Source: a virus (taxonomy: Duplodnaviria; Heunggongvirae; Uroviricota; Caudoviricetes). Taken from it: a stretch of DNA of 39,816 nucleotides. The stretch is taken from IMG/VR virus record IMGVR_UViG_2541047807_000001, positions 1 through 39,816 of that record, one strand, 5' to 3'. Each line of letters opens with the position of its first letter. Position 1 is the first letter of the stretch. Shown here piece after piece: positions 1,213 to 38,584 of this stretch. The position numbers were made by a program, and so were the translations under genes. Under the pieces are notes generated by a model. The model made no database searches, was not told where the DNA came from, and saw nothing but the letters and a program-made list of their open reading frames with translations.

Positions 1213-1797
1213 ATGAAAAGTATCCAGGACGTCCGCAGGCAAAATCTCAACGACTTGATCGACCGTGAATTCAATGGTGTTCAGACGCGGATGGCAGAAA
1301 AACTTGGAACTCAGGCAAATCTGGTAAACCGCTGGGCTCTTGGCAAGAAGGTTATCGGCGACCAGGTTGCGCGAAAAATTGAAGCTGCCGCCAATAAACC
1401 CCGTAACTGGCTTGATATTGATCGTTCGCTTTCTCAGGAGGGTTTTCAGCCTGTCGGCCCGAGCGATATAGGTCAGCTGGCGGCTCACAACCTGGAACGC
1501 TGGATGAGCGAAAGCCGCGACCTTTCAACACAGGGAAAACTTCACCGCGCATCCGGCGTCGCCCAGGTGACAATCAGCCGTCTGTTAAACAATGAGGTCA
1601 GCGTTTCCATTTCCACCCTGGAGAATGTTGCATCCGCATTCGGGCGTCACGGATATGAATTACTGATTCACCCGCACGACCCCGCGACTATCAACTATGA
1701 CCGCTCGCGCTACGCATTGTTACCTGAAACAGAGAAGGCAAAGATCGAAAGTTACATTGAATTTGTCATCAACCAGAACGAAAAAAGCAAACAATAA
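1213..1797 (+). CDS. CI-like immunity repressor with tandem HTH domains and no S24 peptidase domain
   Basis: N-terminal XRE-type HTH (QTRMAEKLGTQANLVNRW) and a second HTH (ASGVAQVTISRLLNNEVSVSISTLENVASAFG). No Ser/Lys autocleavage domain recognisable. Divergent from the Cro-like gene. Confidence 0.65.
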   Translation: MKSIQDVRRQNLNDLIDREFNGVQTRMAEKLGTQANLVNRWALGKKVIGDQVARKIEAAANKPRNWLDIDRSLSQEGFQPVGPSDIGQLAAHNLERWMSESRDLSTQGKLHRASGVAQVTISRLLNNEVSVSISTLENVASAFGRHGYELLIHPHDPATINYDRSRYALLPETEKAKIESYIEFVINQNEKSKQ

Positions 1798-1842: not shown

Positions 1843-1854
1843 TTGCCAGACAGA

Positions 1855-1930
1855 TTACCTTATGGGTAATTTTTTTAACTCATATCTATTGACATCAAAC
1901 CAGATACGCATAATTATTACCTCAACGGTA
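1855..1930. promoter_or_regulatory. OL-like operator pair upstream of the plus-strand early operon
   Basis: TTACCttatgGGTAA (1855-1869) and TTACCtcaacGGTAA (1916-1930), followed by RBS gaggtg and the first early ORF. Confidence 0.55.
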
Positions 1931-1949
1931 ACAGACCGAGGTGACAAGT

Positions 1950-2608: not shown

Positions 2609-3426
2609 ATACTGGCATCTATTTCGACATCAGCAATGAGGACTACCACGCCGGTGACGGCGTGAGTAAGTCGCAACTAGACATGGTTGCCAAGAATCCG
2701 GCGCTTCTTAAATGGGTTCAGGCAGCACCAGAAGACGAAGAGAAAAAGTCTGCACTGGATATGGGAACCGCATTGCACTGTCTGCTTCTGGAGCCTGGAG
2801 AATTCAACAAACGCTTCATTGTTTCACCGAAATTCGATCGTCGGACGAAACAAGGTAAAGCTGACGAAGAAGCATTTCTTCGTGATGTAGCGGATATGGG
2901 GATTACGGTACTTGATGCCGAGCAGTGGCGGAAACTGGAGCTGATGCGTGATAGCGCAATGGCTCACCCGGCGGCACGCTGGATGCTGGAAGCACCTGGT
3001 TACTGCGAAGCATCAATGTACTGGAATGATGAAGAGACTGGTGAGTTGTGCCGCATTCGTCCAGACAAATGGCTGAACGAGCACAACGTGATCGTCGACG
3101 TGAAAAAGGTTGCAGATATGGACCGTTTTGCACGCCACATCGAGGAATTCCGCTACCACGTGCAGGACGCAATGTACCGCGAAGGAGCGATGAGGGTTAC
3201 TGGTCAGTCGCATGGTTTTTTCTTTCTTGCCGTGAGCGAAAGCATTGATTGTGGTCGGTATCCGGTACGCGTGTTCGAGCTGGATGCGCCGGATGTCGAT
3301 GCCGGGCACGCCCTGTTCCGCCGGGATCTGAATACCTATCACGAATGCCGCATCAATGATGAATGGGGCGGCGTGGAAATTATTAAACGCCCTGACTGGG
3401 CACGTAAACAGGATATGTACGTATGA
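2605..3426 (+). CDS. PD-(D/E)XK exonuclease (YqaJ / lambda Exo-like recombination exonuclease)
   Basis: RPD...VIVDVKK motif (PD-x12-DVK), size about 270 aa, immediately upstream of and coupled to a RecT-like gene. Confidence 0.6.
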   Translation: MNTGIYFDISNEDYHAGDGVSKSQLDMVAKNPALLKWVQAAPEDEEKKSALDMGTALHCLLLEPGEFNKRFIVSPKFDRRTKQGKADEEAFLRDVADMGITVLDAEQWRKLELMRDSAMAHPAARWMLEAPGYCEASMYWNDEETGELCRIRPDKWLNEHNVIVDVKKVADMDRFARHIEEFRYHVQDAMYREGAMRVTGQSHGFFFLAVSESIDCGRYPVRVFELDAPDVDAGHALFRRDLNTYHECRINDEWGGVEIIKRPDWARKQDMYV

Positions 3427-9226: not shown

Positions 9227-9435
9227 TTATATGCATAACGACCCCCTAAATAGTAAAGCACCATGCATGATAAACCATTTATGGTTTTTTGTTACCCTAG
9301 CATCGTAAATCCCCTGCCTTTGATGTCGATAATAAGGCTCGCCTTTTACATAACTCTGAAGAGATTGCAGTACAGAAATTATTTAAAATATAGAGGCTTA
9401 GTTGAATTCCGCGCCATCAAATGGCGCGGTAGCAG

Positions 9436-12228: not shown

Positions 12229-12244
12229 CTGTATAAATATACAG
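12229..12244. promoter_or_regulatory. LexA (SOS) box
   Basis: CTGTATAAATATACAG matches the CTGT-N8-ACAG LexA consensus, about 20 nt upstream of the ORF start. Confidence 0.65.
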
Positions 12245-12266
12245 TTATTGCATGGAGAAGATTAAG

Positions 12267-12524
12267 ATGCAGCAGTATCACTATCCACTGGAAGACGGAT
12301 TTACCGAAAGGATTCACACGCCGGGAGGCGTCAGGTCACTGGTGGAGGGATCGCACTTGATGAAATTACTCCGGGATCTCGATAAGGATGGATTTAATGT
12401 CGATGGCCCACTTGCCGAACTGACTGCACTGATTAACTACGTCACCAGCTCACAGATGTCTATGCAGGATCTGCAAACACATCTCGACTATTGTGCCGAA
12501 CAATTACGAAAGCAAACCAGATAA
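12267..12524 (+). CDS. Small antirepressor-like protein (stand-alone paralogue of the antirepressor C-terminal domain)
   Basis: HLMKLLRDLDKDGFNVDGPLAELTALINYVTSSQMSMQDLQTH parallels LLMNLLNQLQEDGHDVSGAAAELTTMFCYIVGVSKCLRDIQTH in the downstream antirepressor. Preceded by the LexA box. Confidence 0.5.
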   Translation: MQQYHYPLEDGFTERIHTPGGVRSLVEGSHLMKLLRDLDKDGFNVDGPLAELTALINYVTSSQMSMQDLQTHLDYCAEQLRKQTR

Positions 12525-13523: not shown

Positions 13524-13594
13524 CGGCGGCGGCACAGGGATGTGCCTTTAAATAATTCTGTACAGATTGCAGACTGTGGGTGAATAGCGTACTA

Positions 13595-13609
13595 TTACCT
13601 CAAGGGTAA
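13595..13609. promoter_or_regulatory. Repressor operator-type site TTACCtcaagGGTAA
   Basis: Perfect TTACC-N5-GGTAA upstream of the toxin-like module. Confidence 0.45.
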
Positions 13610-14460: not shown

Positions 14461-14623
14461 AATGAAAAAAGCATTTGCTGCACTGTTCGTTTTGTTGTCT
14501 CTGGTAGCTTCAACTCAGGCCTTTGCCGGTCGTTGTCAGCACGACAGCGATACTGCTGCTGACGGCTCCCGCTGCGGTGGGCGTTCTGCGGATTCCCGTC
14601 CGGGCGGCGGTGGCATTCGTTAA
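14461..14623 (+). CDS. Small secreted peptide with signal peptide, Cys-containing and Gly-rich
   Basis: MKKAFAALFVLLSLVASTQAFA signal peptide, then a 31-aa mature part. Own sigma70-like promoter TTGACG-16-TATAGA just upstream. Confidence 0.45.
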
Positions 14624-14659
14624 AAACAAGGCCGCGAAAGCGGCCTGTGACATGTCACG

Positions 14660-31617: not shown

Positions 31618-32037
31618 ATGAAGACAATTGATATGTTGGCTAAGTATCTAAATGAATGGCCATTAAAATATTCTCGTATCGTTCAGGCTGAAGACTGCAT
31701 TTTTTATGGCGTTTTTGCTGGTAATGAAATGCATTACGAAGTAATTCAGAGTGAGGGACTGGCCGGGTTAACTCTTAGCGAAGACCATGGTACTAGCGTT
31801 ACGTTCCATGACTGGATAACAGCACAACGTTATGAAATGGAAAAAGGCGATGTGTTTGATATTTCTCGATCTGTTTACGCTAAAGCAAAAAGTGATAATG
31901 ATTACATGAGCGAACACTTATACAACATGAAGTTACAATGCCTGCATGCGGCGCTTATTCAGAATGGGCACTTCGATAAAACAAGTGCCATCAATATTGC
32001 GGAAGCCATCAACGCTGGATTTAATGCCATTAAGTAA
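31618..32037 (+). CDS. Hypothetical moron protein (AT-rich, opposite orientation inside the late operon)
   Basis: 139-aa ORF with RBS aaggtgag; AT-rich; followed by a palindrome and terminator. Confidence 0.55.
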   Translation: MKTIDMLAKYLNEWPLKYSRIVQAEDCIFYGVFAGNEMHYEVIQSEGLAGLTLSEDHGTSVTFHDWITAQRYEMEKGDVFDISRSVYAKAKSDNDYMSEHLYNMKLQCLHAALIQNGHFDKTSAINIAEAINAGFNAIK

Positions 32038-32057
32038 CACCGTGACATGTCACAAAC

Positions 32058-32084
32058 AGCCAGCCGATGAGCTGGCTTTGTTTT
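32058..32084. terminator. Bidirectional rho-independent terminator between the moron and large terminase
   Basis: agccagc-cgatga-gctggct hairpin flanked by AAA on one side and TTTGTTTT on the other. Confidence 0.55.
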
Positions 32085-32127
32085 ATCCTCATCAGAGGAT
32101 ATCAACGACATTATCCCCACCAGCGGA

Positions 32128-33603
32128 TTAAGCATAGGGATCGTAATCTGTGATGGCCTTGCCTTGCTGGTTCTGCTGCCCGGGAATTCGCAGACGCTTC
32201 GACACAGGGAACGCAAACGTCAGCAGTAGCGCATCGCCTTTACCCGGCGAACGCCCAAGCCGCTCCTTGATATCTTCCTTCGGTTCGATAACGATTTTAC
32301 CGTCCACGCGAACTTTGTACTCTGCCGCCGACAGGTCGTCTGCTGTTTCCTGGTCATCCAGCATGCCGCCCAGCCTCAGCCATGTCTTGCATGAATTGAA
32401 CATCTCCCCACGCTTGTTAAGCATCTGCGGGTCAGTAGACGCGCCACCGAACGGAACAAGTTGCCATGTACGACCCCAGCCATCACCGATTGACTTCAGA
32501 CCAGTTCCGTAACCGAAGTCGATGAACACTGCGTCAGCCTGGTACTGGTCTTCAAAGTCAGCGATACGCTTCGCCATAATCAGATCGTCGGTAGTCTTGT
32601 TGCCAGTCCACAGCACCTTACTGTGTAGCCCCTGCCGTAGGTATATCACCGCGTCATCAACGCCTGAATATGCCGGGTCAACACCGATTATCACCGGAGC
32701 ATGCGCCACCTGCGCAGCGGTTACCACCCGTTTCATTGCCTCATCAGTAAGACCGGTAGGGATAAACTGCAATTCAGATGCATCAGGGAATATGCCGCGC
32801 ACACGGATTTTAACGAAGTCGCTGTCTTCCCCGTAGTCATCAACCCATTTCTGCAACTGCTGTTTGTTAGTGCCTTCCACCGTCCGGCTGTCAATCTGCG
32901 CAGTTTTCCAGCGGTGTTTATATTTGCGGAAACATTCGCGGAAACGCCCGGTGTTACGTGTAGGGTTTCCGAACGCCACCCAGATAATCTCAGTGTCTTC
33001 GTCCGTAAGCGCACCCTCAGCAACTTCCCACACCAGATCCGCAATGTTCGACGCTTCATCGAATACCACGATGATGCGTTTGCGCTCGTTGTGTAGTCCG
33101 GCAAATGCCTCAGTGTTGTGCTCAGACCAGGGGATTGCGTCAGCTCGCCAACGCTTGTCGTGCCCAGGGTCATTGCTGTACATCGCGGTAGCGGTACAGG
33201 TAAACCAGTCTTTCGTGATAGCAAGGTTCGACCACTTGATAATTTCCGGCCAGGTCTTCGTTCGTAGCTGGTTGTCGGTGTTGGCAGTCACCACGACCTT
33301 ACAATCCTCGCAAGTGGACATGCCCCAGTTGATCAACATTGAGATGAATGCTGATTTACCAATACCGTGACCCGAAGCACGTGCCAGCATAAGCGGCTGA
33401 TAGCGCGTCTCGGGATTCTGCAGGTGATCACGTATCTCTCGGAACGCATCAGCCTGCCACTGACGTGGGCCGGTAGCATGTGCCAGTTCAGTCCCCTCTT
33501 CCCCCCACGGGAACGCATAGAGGGAATAGCCAAGCGGATCGTGAGTGAACCCTGCAATATCCTCGATCAATTGCTCTTCAGGAGATAACGCTGTATCTGT
33601 CAC
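32128..33603 (-). CDS. Terminase large subunit
   Basis: 491 aa. Walker A-like GHGIGKS near the N-terminus with VVFDEASNI (Walker B-like), and a C-terminal nuclease-like region. Follows the small terminase with overlapping start. Confidence 0.85.
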   Translation of the reverse strand: MTDTALSPEEQLIEDIAGFTHDPLGYSLYAFPWGEEGTELAHATGPRQWQADAFREIRDHLQNPETRYQPLMLARASGHGIGKSAFISMLINWGMSTCEDCKVVVTANTDNQLRTKTWPEIIKWSNLAITKDWFTCTATAMYSNDPGHDKRWRADAIPWSEHNTEAFAGLHNERKRIIVVFDEASNIADLVWEVAEGALTDEDTEIIWVAFGNPTRNTGRFRECFRKYKHRWKTAQIDSRTVEGTNKQQLQKWVDDYGEDSDFVKIRVRGIFPDASELQFIPTGLTDEAMKRVVTAAQVAHAPVIIGVDPAYSGVDDAVIYLRQGLHSKVLWTGNKTTDDLIMAKRIADFEDQYQADAVFIDFGYGTGLKSIGDGWGRTWQLVPFGGASTDPQMLNKRGEMFNSCKTWLRLGGMLDDQETADDLSAAEYKVRVDGKIVIEPKEDIKERLGRSPGKGDALLLTFAFPVSKRLRIPGQQNQQGKAITDYDPYA

Positions 33604-34196
33604 TGATTGCCATCCTGACGTTCTTTCAGTCTCTTCCTGGCTGCCGCTATGCGATCAGCAATTGTCACATTCACATTAACATCCAGGCGTTCTTTGAATG
33701 CATTGACATCGACGTGCTTACCAATCAGCTCAAGGTTCTTCACCTTGTCAGGCCATTTAATTTTTTTGAGGATTGTCTCTATCGAATCCTCGTTCATGTT
33801 CATGATGGTCGATGACAGATCAAAGCCGCTAAGCGTAGTGCGCCAGATTTTCGGCCACTCGCGGATTGGCTTAAGGCTCCCATCGTCGTTGAGGATGTCG
33901 ATCACGTCCATCTGGTCGATCTCCACCAGGCGCATGAGAACGTAATCAGCACTGACGCGCATTCGTTTGTTGCGCTCCTCCATCAACTCGGCAATCCGTT
34001 TTTGAATGCGTTCATCGCGCATCATGACACTGGCTTTAACTGCCGCTGTATTTGGGGAGAATCCTGCATTAATCGCTGCCTGAGTCTGGTTTTCAGGCGT
34101 TTTGATGTATGACTGGCAATAAGCCTCCTGCATTGCTGTTAGTGGCTTAAATTGCGTTGATTTGCGTTTATAGGTTTTAGGTTCAGCAGGCATCAT
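33600..34196 (-). CDS. Terminase small subunit
   Basis: MPAEPKTYKRKSTQFKPLTAMQEAYCQSYIKTPENQTQAAINAGFSPNTAAVKAS is a small-terminase N-terminal pattern. Start ATG at 34196 or 34193; the longer ORF-track start includes 5' UTR repeats. Confidence 0.65.
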   Translation of the reverse strand: MMPAEPKTYKRKSTQFKPLTAMQEAYCQSYIKTPENQTQAAINAGFSPNTAAVKASVMMRDERIQKRIAELMEERNKRMRVSADYVLMRLVEIDQMDVIDILNDDGSLKPIREWPKIWRTTLSGFDLSSTIMNMNEDSIETILKKIKWPDKVKNLELIGKHVDVNAFKERLDVNVNVTIADRIAAARKRLKERQDGNQ

Positions 34197-34313
34197 AACC
34201 ACCGTGGTAATAGTTACCGTTGTGGTAATAGTACCATGCAAAATAAAGCCGCCATAGTTGGCGGCAGTATTCAAAACCATCAAATTCATCATGCATAATC
34301 TACTCGTGACATG

Positions 34314-34655
34314 TCACACTATTAATTTCGTTTCATGCCAGCCTTTAGTCACCCAGCATTGCGAGTCACCATTACACGGGCATGAATTAACGGGAACTCT
34401 CTCGCCGCACTTACCGCAACATTTTCTGCTGATCGATTTTATACGCCCGCGCACGCGTGCATCATCCTGGCGGATCAGTAACGCTATATACTCACCAAAT
34501 TCGTAAGGCGCACGCCCGGGGCGACGCGTGGCACAGTTACGCTCCAGCATTTCAATTTCCTGAGCATCAAGCACAATTTCCAGCTTACGCACACCAGATG
34601 CAGCTTGTCTGGCTCTCTGAGCGGCTTTGCGCTCTGCTGCTGATTTAGCCATCAA
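34314..34655 (-). CDS. Hypothetical protein with Cys-rich C-terminus
   Basis: 113 aa ending in CCGKCGERVPVNSCPCNGDSQC; last gene before the late operon. Confidence 0.45.
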   Translation of the reverse strand: MMAKSAAERKAAQRARQAASGVRKLEIVLDAQEIEMLERNCATRRPGRAPYEFGEYIALLIRQDDARVRGRIKSISRKCCGKCGERVPVNSCPCNGDSQCWVTKGWHETKLIV

Positions 34656-34926
34656 TATTCACCTTTATCGCGAATACCTTTACCGGTTTATCGCCGAAGT
34701 GCGGATGTGTGATTGTCTTGATTTCATATCCGTCATACGGAACATCAATTCTACGGCTGGAATCGTCGCGCTTCGGATATCCCTTTGTGATAATCAGGCG
34801 GTCATACTCCCGGAACATAATTCGCTTATTCCAGTAGTCATTACACAGGCGATACTCTTCCGTTTTCTCTCCGCGAATCATGGCATCGAAGTATTCACCT
34901 TTGACGGCAAGTTGCAGGTTAGCCAC
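34645..34926 (-). CDS. ASCH-domain-like protein
   Basis: N-terminal GEKTEEYR matches the ASCH GxKxxExR signature; 93 aa. Confidence 0.45.
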   Translation of the reverse strand: MANLQLAVKGEYFDAMIRGEKTEEYRLCNDYWNKRIMFREYDRLIITKGYPKRDDSSRRIDVPYDGYEIKTITHPHFGDKPVKVFAIKVNIDG

Positions 34927-35512
34927 GGTTAACCTCCTGCGGCGGTTCTGGTAGCGGCATCCAGTGGGTTACCTCTTTGAGATACAGGTCTTCGCCACCA
35001 CCGTCATCCCAAGTGGGATTGCCATCATTAAACCAGTCGCCATATACGCCGACCTGAGTGTTGGGGATGTTTGGTGGGTAGTTGTTTTTAAAGTCAGCCG
35101 CTAACACATAGCATTGTCGCTCTCCCATTTCTGGCATTAGCTCACTACAGCTTATCCAACCATCCGGAGTTACCGGAGAGTTGCCATTTATATCGAAGTT
35201 TGGTTCTGCGTCCTGAACCAGGAGGATGTAACCATTCTTGGCAGTATCAAGTTCTAACGCCTCGGTGACGGTACCGAAATAGCGATTACCTAAATCCGCA
35301 TCACAAGTGCTTACATCAATGGAAACCTCCATGCCTTCGATTAATTCTGGCAAGTTGTAAGTTTGGCTTACAGGCTCTGCTTCCAGCGATACCAGTGCAA
35401 TTCGTGCCAGTTCTTCCGCTTCTTCTGCTGGCAGTACAACGTTGCTATCAGGTCCGTATGTTTCGCGCCACTGCTTGATTGTCAGCAGTCGCTCTTTGGT
35501 AATAGTGATCAT
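34919..35512 (-). CDS. DUF551-like early protein; N-terminal module shared with the gene at 36026..36439
   Basis: First ~45 aa (MITITKERLLTIKQWRETYGPDSNVVLPAEEAEELARIAL) nearly identical to the paralogue; C-terminal PDGWISCSELMPE segment. Confidence 0.5.
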   Translation of the reverse strand: MITITKERLLTIKQWRETYGPDSNVVLPAEEAEELARIALVSLEAEPVSQTYNLPELIEGMEVSIDVSTCDADLGNRYFGTVTEALELDTAKNGYILLVQDAEPNFDINGNSPVTPDGWISCSELMPEMGERQCYVLAADFKNNYPPNIPNTQVGVYGDWFNDGNPTWDDGGGEDLYLKEVTHWMPLPEPPQEVNRG

Positions 35513-36024
35513 GCCGCGTTTCCTTCTTTCTTATTAACAATTACACCGTCATATATTTCATTAAGGTGCCCTCTCAACTCCATGCGCCTTAATGCAGATA
35601 ACATGTAATCGCATTCAACCTGCTTATTCCCAATAAAAGGTTTATCTTCAGGGTTACCCCAACAGCAATTACCCTTGGGCCACCCATGTACTTTCCGTAC
35701 TCTTCCGTTAACAACGTGAAGTAATCCCCAGCCAGGTGGTAAATCCTCAATTGAAATAATTCCCGGCTCACTAATAAAGAATCGCCAGTCGCCCATTCCA
35801 AGAGACGGATTTTTACGAAAACGCTTTTTTCTATCTGCCAACAAGTCAGCACGAGAACACTTCGCCTCTATCAGGCATGATGCTGAATTTCTGAATCCCA
35901 TAGCATCTGGCTGTTCTCCGGTACTGGTTACAGCAACAAAGCGGTCATGAAAGCAAACCTTGAACCCGTTGCGCTTAAGGAACTTGTACGCAATCTGACA
36001 GAGTTCGTGGTGTGTTAACGCCAT
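35509..36024 (-). CDS. Putative PD-(D/E)XK-fold nuclease-like protein
   Basis: GEQPDAMGF...CLIEAKCS fits a PD-x(n)-E-x-K arrangement. Strong RBS AAGGAG before ATG 36024. Confidence 0.4.
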   Translation of the reverse strand: MALTHHELCQIAYKFLKRNGFKVCFHDRFVAVTSTGEQPDAMGFRNSASCLIEAKCSRADLLADRKKRFRKNPSLGMGDWRFFISEPGIISIEDLPPGWGLLHVVNGRVRKVHGWPKGNCCWGNPEDKPFIGNKQVECDYMLSALRRMELRGHLNEIYDGVIVNKKEGNAA

Positions 36025-38122: not shown

Positions 38123-38467
38123 TCAGAACTCTTCGATTTTCCAGCCACCACCTGCTTTCTTTGGCTTAACAGTTACCCCGATGATTCGGAACGGATATTG
38201 ATCTGCGGCGACTTTGGTTTTCACCCTGGCGTCGTCGGTCCAGAAACCTTTCACTTCGTGCAGTTCCATCTCTCCGGTGGCGAGCATCACAGCGAAATCT
38301 GGCGTATAGAACGTGTTATCAGCTAACCGCAGCTTGATACCCTCGAATCGATACCAGGCGATTTCCCCTGCACGTTTACGCAGCTCAAGGTGCTGGCAAT
38401 ACGCAGATTCTGTTTTGTTCATCTGGCCTGTTTTGAGTCGACCAAGAGCCTGTATCTGTTTTCTCAT
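38123..38467 (-). CDS. Small PD-(D/E)XK-like protein (DUF1064-like)
   Basis: YTPDFAVMLATGEMELHEVKG fits PD-x(n)-E-x-K; 114 aa. Confidence 0.4.
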   Translation of the reverse strand: MRKQIQALGRLKTGQMNKTESAYCQHLELRKRAGEIAWYRFEGIKLRLADNTFYTPDFAVMLATGEMELHEVKGFWTDDARVKTKVAADQYPFRIIGVTVKPKKAGGGWKIEEF

Positions 38468-38470
38468 GAT

Positions 38471-38537
38471 TTACCCCTGAGGTAATTAAAAACCACATAA
38501 GACACGAAATCAATAGAGTTTAGAATATTTTATTACC
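38471..38537. promoter_or_regulatory. Operator pair between the P-like gene and the next early gene
   Basis: TTACCcctgaGGTAA (38471-38485) and TTACCcagcaGGTAA (38523-38537). Confidence 0.45.
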
Positions 38538-38584
38538 CAGCAGGTAATTATCAAGACGTAAAAAAATGCGCTATCGCGCTGGTA

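What the first reader, a model, noticed from the sequence alone, without database searches (positions are those of the whole stretch)
34200..34317. Tandem repeat, hairpin and palindrome cluster in the leader of the terminase operon (candidate late promoter or pac region)
Immediately upstream of the small terminase start are two tandem copies of GTGGTAATAGT(T)ACC (34204-34235), a GC hairpin gccgccatagttggcggc (34250-34267) and the GTGACATGTCAC palindrome (34306-34317). No Q-like antiterminator gene is evident, so late-gene control may act here. Alternatively this may be the packaging recognition region.
Basis: seen in the sequence. Interest (0 to 1): 0.45.

Follow-up and report, generated by a model that had tools for sequence, protein, structure and literature searches.

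The report
Repressor-controlled start of phage terminase operon
The repeat, hairpin and palindrome upstream of the terminase genes of this phiV10/epsilon15-type phage are real: they are most likely two binding sites for the prophage repressor over a promoter, an ordinary transcription terminator, and a conserved 12-base site tied to the small DNA-binding protein encoded just upstream.

Summary
All three features exist; the hairpin is 34248-34265, 2 nt from the stated position. The genes lie on the minus strand.

- **"Tandem repeat".** It is the left halves of two adjacent 17-bp palindromes, ATTACC-N5-GGTAAT (34213-34229 and 34195-34211). This motif occurs 10 times in the window against 0.06 expected. 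It flanks the repressor gene, a homologue of SPC32H Rep, and the epsilon15 GenBank record annotates it as repressor-binding, including upstream of terS. A conserved extended -10 (TGgTACTAT) abuts the first operator in the same register as at PL. The second operator covers the ribosome-binding site.
- **Hairpin.** It is a rho-independent terminator on the gene strand that ends the early-right operon.
- **GTGACATGTCAC.** It occurs exactly three times in this genome and in epsilon15. Each copy lies between a stop codon and a terminator.
- **Link to the upstream gene.** GTGAC-NN-GTCAC sits at the 3' end of the upstream gene in 63 of 80 diverse viral loci and in N15. The protein has a ribbon-helix-helix fold plus a zinc-binding domain. 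I infer that the palindrome is this protein's DNA site.

"Late control acts here" is partly right. A pac role is neither supported nor excluded. The operator/terminator layout is a known kind; the palindrome-protein pairing appears undescribed.

The parts
34314..34652 (-). Last gene of the early-right (nin-like) operon: a 112-aa ribbon-helix-helix plus Cys4 zinc-domain protein (epsilon15 gp49 / N15 gp46 family, phrog_536)
34306..34317 (.). PAL-C: 12-bp palindrome GTGACATGTCAC overlapping the TGA stop (34314-34316) of the RHH-Zn gene; inferred DNA site of that protein
   Evidence: As an RNA hairpin it gives only -2.9 kcal/mol, z -0.15.
34266..34305 (-). Variable non-coding spacer. Its 3' part (about 34266-34290) is the remnant of a 70-aa gene that is intact in about a quarter of close relatives. 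It is the source of the spurious long terS ORF.
   Evidence: One search shows 1-nt length polymorphism (GATGG / GATGGG / GATGTG) that breaks the frame. One search shows the intact gene in L021.
34239..34265 (-). Rho-independent terminator: stem-loop 34248-34265 and U-tract 34239-34247
   Evidence: Annotated at the same place in epsilon15. Replaced by unrelated terminators in other lineages.
34228..34236 (-). Predicted extended -10 promoter TGgTACTAT (hexamer 34233-34228) for the terS operon; predicted start near 34221
   Evidence: TG, TA and TAT are invariant in 10 divergent leaders while the other positions vary. The -10/operator register is the same as at PL and at 13590. This is an inference; no TSS data.
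34213..34229 (.). Operator Oa, ATTACCACAACGGTAAC on the minus strand (1 mismatch to ATTACC-N5-GGTAAT)
34195..34211 (.). Operator Ob, ATTACCACGGTGGTTAT on the minus strand (1 mismatch); it covers the SD GGTGG (34199-34203) and ends 2 nt before the conserved ATG
33600..34193 (-). terS (197 aa; Terminase_2)
   Evidence: Pfam PF03592 at E 1.6e-29. The start is conserved as ATGCC in all relatives. The length matches the TL-2011b, Tyrion and epsilon15 annotations.
32042..32086 (+). PAL-B (32042-32053) plus terminator (hairpin 32058-77, T-run 32078-86), 4 nt after the stop of the opposite-strand gene 31618-32037 and downstream of terL
14622..14658 (-). PAL-A (14647-14658) plus terminator (hairpin 14630-45, U-run 14622-29) at the end of the structural operon
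1213..1797 (+). Prophage repressor Rep, homologue of the SPC32H repressor (PDB 5D50)
   Evidence: E 3.5e-42.
1854..1932 (+). PL region: operators at 1854-1870 and 1916-1932 flanking TTGACA(1889)-17-AATTAT(1912). This is the reference architecture for the -10/operator overlap.

Best explanation
The 120-bp leader is the junction between the early-right operon and the packaging operon of a phiV10/epsilon15-type (Uetakevirus) temperate phage. Read 5'->3' on the minus strand it contains four elements:

1. A 12-bp palindrome, GTGACATGTCAC, overlapping the stop codon of the last early gene. That gene encodes a ribbon-helix-helix plus zinc-domain protein. The palindrome is most likely this protein's own DNA site.
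2. A rho-independent terminator that ends early transcription.
3. An extended -10 sigma-70 promoter, TGgTACTAT.
4. Two abutting 17-bp operators, ATTACC-N5-GGTAAY, for the prophage repressor Rep. They cover the -10/+1 region, the Shine-Dalgarno sequence and the edge of the terS start.

Proposed mechanism: the terminator insulates the terminase operon from upstream transcription. In the lysogen, Rep holds the operon off directly. It fires from its own promoter when Rep is inactivated, presumably by the LexA-controlled antirepressor, as in SPC32H.

Shown: the motif statistics, the conservation patterns, the terminator fold, the Rep homology and the RHH fold.
Inferred: Rep binding, promoter activity, and the palindrome's binding partner.
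For: Operators:
- 10 sites against 0.06 expected.
- They lie on both sides of rep and upstream of terS, the portal cluster and the tail-fibre gene.
- The epsilon15 record annotates the same motif as 'repressor' protein_bind at 7 sites, including 12-27 just upstream of terS.
- The window's Rep matches the SPC32H repressor 5D50 at E 3.5e-42.
- Genomes with a Rep homologue have 9-11 sites. Omnitron and Chlobot have no Rep homologue and 0 sites.
- In 10 divergent leaders the half-sites are invariant and the N5 spacers vary.
- The operator pair stays glued to terS in BUCT554 and KpST11 even where a umuD-like gene separates it from the palindrome.

Promoter:
- TG/TA/TAT are invariant, with variation at the non-critical positions.
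- The -10 hexamer ends in the first two operator bases exactly as at PL (TTGACA-17-AATTAT|TACC) and at 13567 (TTGCAG-17-TACTAT|TACC).

Terminator:
- -15.8 kcal/mol, z -4.4, with a U-tract.
- Annotated in epsilon15.
- Analogous but unrelated terminators occupy the same place in other lineages.

Palindrome:
- 3 exact copies here, and 3 in epsilon15 at homologous places.
- 63 of 80 diverse family loci carry GTGAC-NN-GTCAC within about 45 nt of the gene's stop, against 3 elsewhere in 253 kb. There are 51 different downstream contexts.
- N15 gene 46 shows the same arrangement; lambda has none.
- The protein has an RHH fold.
Against: - There are no binding, TSS or 3'-end data for any member of this group in the literature I could read. 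The SPC32H and epsilon15 primary papers were not held.
- The promoter has no recognisable -35, and the generic promoter scan did not report it.
- Both operators carry one mismatch to the consensus.
- A repressor-gated promoter alone does not explain temporal delay of late genes, so an activator or read-through contribution may exist.
- The palindrome's partner is inferred from co-location and fold only. A host protein cannot be excluded, and 13 of 80 family loci lacked the site near the stop.
Confidence: 0.58

Rival explanations
1. Operators act as a roadblock only. There is no promoter in the leader. Late genes are transcribed by read-through of the terminator from the early-right promoter. 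Rep bound at Oa/Ob merely blocks leaky read-through in the lysogen.
For: - There is no -35 element, and the promoter scan did not call a site there.
- In BUCT554 and KpST11 no terminator separates the upstream genes from terS, so read-through does reach terS in those phages.
- Ob lies over the RBS and start codon rather than over a promoter.
Against: - TGnTAnTAT is conserved with exactly the pattern expected of an extended -10.
- Its register with the operator is identical to that of two good sigma-70 promoters in the same genome.
- A strong terminator directly upstream would starve the operon unless antitermination exists, and no antiterminator was found.
Confidence: 0.2
2. A lambda-Q-like late switch. 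The RHH-Zn protein binds the palindrome and modifies RNA polymerase so that it reads through the terminator that follows. The same would happen at the two other palindrome-terminator pairs. This would turn on late genes in a phage that lacks Q.
For: - The gene sits where Q sits in lambda, directly upstream of a terminator and the late genes.
- All three palindromes lie between a stop codon and an intrinsic terminator.
- The family profile weakly matches the zinc-finger region of TraR and YbiI (E 0.023-0.037). From memory, these are DksA/TraR-family proteins, of which TraR binds RNA polymerase.
- GTGACA resembles a -35, and epsilon15-type leaders have TAAATT 17 nt downstream.
Against: - The same gene plus palindrome occurs in a lambdoid phage and in N15-like phages that carry a bona fide Q, and in a Mu-like phage.
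- Many loci have the palindrome followed directly by an RBS and no terminator.
- Omnitron's extra sites are intragenic.
- A -10 at fixed spacing is not conserved outside the epsilon15 lineage.
- The TraR match is below significance, and Pfam finds no DksA/TraR domain.
Confidence: 0.1
3. The repeats and/or the palindrome are the pac recognition site, where small terminase binds to start headful packaging.
For: - pac sites of headful phages usually lie in or next to terS (general knowledge of P22, SPP1, Sf6, P1).
- The relative Tyrion has terminally redundant, circularly permuted DNA (PMC5754475).
- TerS is of the Terminase_2 type.
Against: - None of the elements is unique to this locus. The repeat motif occurs 10 times, including the immunity region, and tracks the Rep type, not the terminase type.
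- The palindrome occurs 3 times and follows the RHH-Zn gene into phages with unrelated terminases.
- The deposited genome ends of phiV10, epsilon15 and Tyrion in this region differ from each other. They look like annotation conventions rather than mapped ends.
Confidence: 0.07
4. The repeat is coding: either an N-terminal extension of TerS (..TITTTVTITTVV..) or a Thr/Ile-rich leader peptide for attenuation at the hairpin.
For: - In this window an ATG at 34292 is in frame with terS.
- The phiV10, PAT1 and SPN1S records annotate long terS genes.
Against: - A 1-nt length polymorphism among near-identical relatives shifts the frame.
- The ORF would run through a terminator.
- The Pfam and PHROG matches start at residue 35 or later.
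- Only the ATGCC start is conserved.
- The upstream ATG lies in the remnant of a deleted gene.
Confidence: 0.02

Closest known systems
Repressor-binding sites annotated in Salmonella phage epsilon15 (NC_004775) and the Rep/Ant immunity system of SPC32H (PDB 5D50)
   Same: - The same 17-bp motif, ATTACC-N5-GGTAAT.
- The same position just upstream of terS (epsilon15 12-27), and also upstream of the portal and tail-fibre clusters and in the immunity region.
- A homologous repressor.
- An ant-like gene with a LexA box is present.
   Different: - In this lineage both sites of the terS pair match the motif with at most 1 mismatch and share an 11-nt extended left half. The second epsilon15 site has 2 mismatches and is not annotated.
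- Binding of Rep to this motif could not be checked in the primary papers, which were not held.
Lambda late switch (Q gene - PR' - tR')
   Same: The last gene of the early-right operon is followed by a regulatory DNA site and an intrinsic terminator in front of the late genes.
   Different: - No Q-family protein was found.
- The promoter lies after the terminator, not before it.
- Repressor operators sit on the late promoter.
- The RHH-Zn gene coexists with Q in other phages.
Phage P1 C1 regulon: one repressor with operators dispersed over the genome (from memory, not tested here)
   Same: A single immunity repressor with about 10 operators scattered in front of several operons, including morphogenesis-related ones.
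   Different: - P1 late genes additionally need the activator Lpa; no counterpart was identified here.
- The repressor families are unrelated.
MatP/matS of Enterobacteria
   Same: - Identical 5-bp arms, GTGAC...GTCAC (matS = GTGAC[AG]N[TC]GTCAC; PMC3603311).
- A few sites are spread over a replicon.
   Different: - The centre is 2 nt, not 3, so the site is 12 bp rather than 13 bp.
- No true matS occurs in any of the phage genomes examined.
- Profile comparison with my recalled MatP sequence is not significant (E 0.064).
- The phage protein has a zinc domain instead of MatP's four-helix bundle and coiled coil.
pac sites of headful phages (SPP1 pacL/pacR, P22 pac, P1 pac; from memory)
   Same: Location at the terS gene; short repeats.
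   Different: The repeats here belong to a genome-wide operator family. No sequence similarity or unique site was shown.

Membership tests
Rep (epsilon15/SPC32H-type) operator | 17-bp palindrome ATTACC-N5-GGTAAT | tested here: met
   34213-34229 and 34195-34211 each have 1 mismatch. The half-sites are invariant in relatives while the spacers vary.
Rep (epsilon15/SPC32H-type) operator | Motif over-represented and clustered around the repressor gene and at promoters | tested here: met
   10 sites against 0.06 expected. Sites at 1142 and at 1854/1916 flank rep. The motif overlaps the PL -10.
Rep (epsilon15/SPC32H-type) operator | Cognate repressor encoded; motif absent where the repressor is absent | tested here: met
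   Rep matches 5D50 at E 3.5e-42. Omnitron and Chlobot have no Rep homologue and 0 sites.
Rep (epsilon15/SPC32H-type) operator | Physical binding by Rep and repression in vivo | not testable with these tools
   Needs EMSA or footprinting and reporter assays. The only support is the curated annotation of the epsilon15 record.
Rho-independent terminator | GC-rich stem-loop followed by a U-tract on the transcribed strand | tested here: met
   7-bp stem with 6 GC pairs, a 4-nt loop, then UUUAUUUUG; -15.8 kcal/mol, z -4.4.
Rho-independent terminator | Conserved or functionally replaced in relatives | tested here: met
   The same hairpin occurs in epsilon15, SPN1S, Tyrion and PAT1. A G-U-compatible change occurs in L007. 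Unrelated terminators occupy the same place in Omnitron, L103, L116-119, L150 and L188.
Rho-independent terminator | RNA 3' ends at the U-tract | not testable with these tools
   Needs Term-seq or 3'-RACE.
Extended -10 sigma-70 promoter | TGn immediately upstream of a TAnnnT hexamer | tested here: met
   TGgTACTAT at 34236-34228. Relatives have TGTTACTAT, TGATAGTAT and TGGTATTAT.
Extended -10 sigma-70 promoter | Transcription initiation about 7 nt downstream | not testable with these tools
   No transcript data are available.
Lambda-type Q antitermination module | Q-family antiterminator protein | tested here: not met
   No Q family was found among the ORFs of the early-right operon scanned with Pfam and/or PHROGs. 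The RHH-Zn protein has no Q-like fold.
Lambda-type Q antitermination module | Promoter with a factor-binding element upstream of the terminator | tested here: inconclusive
   GTGACA-18-CATGAT here scores 9/12, no better than chance. TAAATT at 17 nt occurs only in the epsilon15 lineage.
pac site | A unique terminase recognition/cleavage site that defines the packaging series | not testable with these tools
   Needs mapping of virion DNA ends. The candidate elements are not unique in the genome.
matS (MatP site) | 13-bp GTGAC[AG]N[TC]GTCAC | tested here: not met
   The site is 12 bp with a 2-nt centre. No 13-bp matS occurs in the window or in 4 related genomes. The consensus is from PMC3603311.
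Ribbon-helix-helix DNA-binding proteins (upstream gene product) | beta-alpha-alpha fold matching solved RHH domains | tested here: met

The most novel reading that the evidence does not exclude
GTGAC-NN-GTCAC is the cognate site of a widespread, uncharacterised phage protein that combines a ribbon-helix-helix domain with a TraR-like zinc finger. In the Q-less epsilon15/phiV10 phages, this DNA-bound protein would control read-through, or enforce termination, at the three intrinsic terminators that each follow a copy of the site. That would make it a site-specific regulator of termination of a kind not described. A related variant: it is a phage matS/MatP-like system that organises phage DNA.
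Probability: 0.2. Interest if true: 0.7.

Novelty: new member of a known kind. Interest (0 to 1): 0.42.

Why it matters
phiV10 and epsilon15 relatives are used as reporter and typing phages and as structural models, yet their late-gene control is not worked out.

The data suggest the terminase operon is gated directly by the prophage repressor through a double operator on an extended -10 promoter. It is shielded from early transcription by a terminator. That is simpler than the lambda Q paradigm and gives precise targets for engineering: the operators, the -10, and the cargo-insertion hot spot just after the palindrome.

Separately, the tight pairing of a 12-bp matS-like palindrome with an uncharacterised RHH-zinc protein makes a concrete, cheap hypothesis about a common phage protein of unknown function. 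The pairing holds across podoviral, lambdoid, N15-like and Mu-like phages.

Tried and rejected
- **Rfam on 33000-36000.** Only a sub-threshold rseX hit (29.6 bits against a gathering score of 50, E 0.58). Treated as noise.
- **Coding or leader-peptide reading of the repeat (TITTTVTITT, reminiscent of thrL).** Rejected on frame-shifting polymorphism and conservation.
- **Palindrome as an RNA hairpin.** -2.9 kcal/mol, no better than shuffles.
- **Palindrome as a conserved -35.** -10-like hexamers at 16-18 nt are enriched only within the epsilon15 lineage, not across the 51 contexts.
- **DksA/TraR domain.** Profile hits at E 0.02-0.04, but no Pfam support. Kept as a lead only.
- **First AF2 run on a shallow alignment.** Unusable, pLDDT 53.6. 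Foldseek against the PDB gave nothing significant.
- **afdb50 fold search.** Unavailable.
- **Primary papers.** The SPC32H papers (PMC4983836, PMC3807360) were not held, nor was my guessed id (PMC2698709) for the epsilon15 genome paper. The ZX5 and the 2025 epsilon15 papers contain nothing on late control or packaging ends.
- **Literature search for the 12-mer.** 0 papers.
- **Single-protein scans of viral contigs with distant homologues.** Returned only self hits. The 45-sequence alignment was too divergent to scan with.

Full report
**Context**

The window is a phiV10/epsilon15-type (Uetakevirus) temperate phage genome. The 33600-34700 stretch is 97-98% identical to E. coli phages PAS61, TL-2011b and ZX5, and over part of its length to phiV10. 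It is more distantly related to epsilon15, SPN1S, PAT1, Tyrion, BUCT554 and Klebsiella prophages.

The genes in this part of the window lie on the minus strand:
- terL, 32128-33603.
- terS, ending at 33600.
- Upstream, a 112/113-aa gene at 34314-34655 that RefSeq calls 'transcriptional regulator' (epsilon15 gp49).

All elements of the finding are therefore read on the minus strand.

**Observation**

- The direct repeat is GTGGTAATAGT at 34204 and 34222.
- The hairpin is at 34248-34265, 2 nt off the stated coordinates.
- The palindrome is at 34306-34317.

All three are present.

**The long terS ORF is not real**

The window has an ATG at 34292 in frame with terS, which would make the repeat coding. 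Four observations argue against it:
- Near-identical relatives differ by 1 nt (GATGG / GATGGG / GATGTG) inside this stretch, which shifts the frame.
- The stretch is the remnant of a 70-aa gene that is intact in about a quarter of relatives.
- The ORF would cross a terminator.
- Only the ATGCC start at 34193 is conserved in ten divergent leaders.

terS is therefore 33600-34193 (197 aa), as annotated in TL-2011b, Tyrion and epsilon15.

**The tandem repeat is a pair of repressor operators**

On the gene strand the region reads ...TGGTACT-ATTACCACAACGGTAAC-T-ATTACCACGGTGGTTAT-GATG. It holds two abutting 17-mers of the form ATTACC-N5-GGTAAT, each with one mismatch.

*Motif statistics and distribution*
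- The motif has 10 matches in the window against 0.06 expected; 0 of 100 shuffles reached 10.
- The other sites lie on both sides of the repressor gene (1142; 1854 and 1916), inside the early-right operon (38470 and 38532), upstream of the portal cluster (31005), next to the tail-fibre and ant genes (12174), and at 13594.

*Link to the repressor*
- The epsilon15 GenBank record annotates seven copies of this motif as 'protein_bind: repressor', including 12-27 immediately upstream of terS.
- The window's ORF 1213-1797 is a clear homologue of the SPC32H repressor (PDB 5D50, E 3.5e-42).
- The motif tracks the repressor. The window, BUCT554 and epsilon15 have a Rep homologue and 10, 9 and 11 sites. 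Omnitron and Chlobot have none of either.

*Conservation across relatives*
- The half-sites are invariant and the 5-nt spacers vary, as expected for a dimer-recognised operator.
- The pair stays attached to terS in BUCT554 and KpST11, where a umuD-like gene has been inserted further upstream.

A secondary source says Rep binds DNA as a tetramer (PMC9638917). I could not read the primary papers.

**A promoter overlaps the first operator (inference)**

- Immediately upstream of Oa, the bases TG-n-TA-n-TAT are invariant in all ten leaders. The n positions vary (G/T/A and C/G/T). This is the signature of an extended -10 promoter.
- The last two bases of the hexamer are the first two of the operator. 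Two canonical promoters in the same genome have the same register: PL, TTGACA-17-AATTAT|TACC (1889-1917), and TTGCAG-17-TACTAT|TACC (13567-13595).
- The predicted start is near 34221. Oa covers -10/+1, and Ob covers the SD GGTGG and abuts the ATG.
- There is no -35, and the generic scan did not call this promoter. It therefore remains an inference.

**The hairpin is a terminator**

- On the gene strand the sequence is GCCGCCAACUAUGGCGGC followed by UUUAUUUUG: -15.8 kcal/mol, z -4.4.
- It is annotated as a rho-independent terminator in epsilon15.
- In other lineages unrelated terminators occupy the equivalent place.
- It ends the early-right operon, whose scanned ORFs (ten of eleven; 34645-34926 by Pfam and PHROGs, the others by PHROGs) contain replication genes, a RuvC-like gene, DUF551 and similar genes. 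I found no Q-type antiterminator.

**The palindrome**

*In this genome and its close relatives*
- GTGACATGTCAC occurs exactly three times in the window (14647, 32042, 34306).
- It occurs three times in epsilon15, and at the three corresponding positions in BUCT554, where the copy after the RHH-Zn gene has a changed centre (GTGACCTGTCAC). About 0.04 are expected per genome.
- Each copy lies between a stop codon and an intrinsic terminator on the strand of that gene:
  - After the RHH-Zn gene.
  - After the opposite-strand gene 31618-32037 next to terL.
  - At the end of the structural operon.
- As RNA it folds no better than shuffles, so a DNA site is more likely.

*Association with the upstream gene family*
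- The arms GTGAC/GTCAC with a variable 2-nt centre are found at the 3' end of homologues down to about 44-47% identity, in unrelated genomic settings (L102, L103, L105, L108/109, L111/112). The same holds for N15 gene 46, whose identity to the window protein I did not compute.
- In a set of 80 diverse viral loci encoding family members, 63 have the exact arms within about 45 nt of the stop, and 4 more have one mismatch. Only 3 other copies occur in 253 kb. There are 51 different downstream sequences.
- The offset to the stop varies (-23, -4, -1, +2, +4, +6), so this is not a codon effect.
- Lambda, which lacks the gene, has no such site.

*The protein*
- It has no Pfam family.
- With a 58-sequence alignment it models at pLDDT 92.8.
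- The C-terminal half carries a conserved Cys cluster. It weakly resembles the TraR/YbiI zinc finger (E about 0.02-0.04).
- An RHH dimer recognising a 12-bp palindrome is the natural inference, but it is untested.

*What the protein is not, and an unexplained resemblance*
- The family is not a general Q substitute. It coexists with Q in a lambdoid phage (Omnitron; the gene sits in the nin region) and in N15-type phages. It also occurs in a Mu-like phage.
- The arms are identical to those of matS (GTGAC[AG]N[TC]GTCAC; PMC3603311), but the centre is one base shorter. No significant MatP homology was found.

**Packaging**

Tyrion DNA is terminally redundant and circularly permuted (PMC5754475), so this group packages by the headful mechanism and has a pac site somewhere. 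Nothing in the leader is unique enough to nominate it. The deposited genome starts of phiV10, epsilon15 and Tyrion differ and look conventional rather than mapped.

**Verdict**

- This is the control region of the terminase operon. The control is most likely direct repression by the prophage repressor at a double operator over an extended -10 promoter, downstream of an insulating terminator.
- This layout is already annotated, in part, for epsilon15, so it is a new member of a known kind.
- The palindrome and its protein partner are the part worth an experiment.

Noticed in passing
window 14622-14658 and 32042-32086: Two further exact copies of GTGACATGTCAC. Each sits between a stop codon and an intrinsic terminator, at junctions where late genes converge with opposite-strand accessory genes. 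The same arrangement occurs in epsilon15 and BUCT554.
   Followed up: yes
L195 (N15 30000-46375): 9270-9281 and 3238-3249: N15 gene 46 (same protein family) ends in GTGACTGGTCAC at the same -4 offset. An identical second copy lies inside the replication gene repA.
   Followed up: partly
window 12229-12244: A perfect LexA box (CTGTATAAATATACAG) lies just upstream of a 90-aa gene (12252-12524, +) with a weak anti-repressor PHROG match. It is next to operator 12174 and the tail-fibre gene. This fits a LexA-controlled antirepressor, as in SPC32H.
   Followed up: partly
window 1854/1916 and 38470/38532; epsilon15 32554/32616 and 35906/35968; BUCT554 11579/11641 and 14643/14705: Operator pairs recur at exactly 62 bp start-to-start (about 6 helical turns). 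At terS, and in the rep-cro interval, they abut (17-20 bp). This may reflect tetrameric Rep bridging two sites.
   Followed up: no
window 38532-38560 (minus strand): An internal early-right promoter candidate, TTGATA-16-TAAAAT, has an operator in its spacer. A second operator covers the RBS of the RuvC-like gene 38123-38467.
   Followed up: no
L021:2851-3070, L085/L087 (BUCT554, KpST11), many of L146-L190: The position just after the palindrome is a cargo hot spot. It holds a 70-aa gene in some relatives. In others it holds a umuD-like gene with its own TTGACT promoter and LexA box (TACTGTTTAAATGTACAGTA).
   Followed up: partly
records of phiV10 (675 nt), PAT1 (672 nt), SPN1S (669 nt): terS is annotated with an N-terminal extension that runs through the operators and the terminator. 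The conserved start gives about 594-597 nt, so these annotations are probably too long.
   Followed up: partly
window 34314-34652 product, residues about 48-109: The family profile gives its best PDB sequence hits to TraR (E 0.023) and YbiI (E 0.037), which from memory are DksA/TraR-type zinc-finger proteins (TraR binds RNA polymerase). The hits are below significance but in register with the CxxCG..LP motif.
   Followed up: partly
L088/L098 (phage Chlobot 17206-17505): A lambdoid phage carries a partial copy of the RHH-Zn gene near xis/int (tblastn matches residues 20-112; the record annotates only a 141-nt CDS there). The palindrome is intact but displaced 8 nt beyond a new stop codon.
   Followed up: partly
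L106/L107 (homologue P0133): A 50%-identical family member from an AT-rich contig lacks GTGAC arms. It has a different palindrome, TATAAAT-GTT-ATTTATA, overlapping its TAA stop. This may be a diverged cognate site.
   Followed up: no
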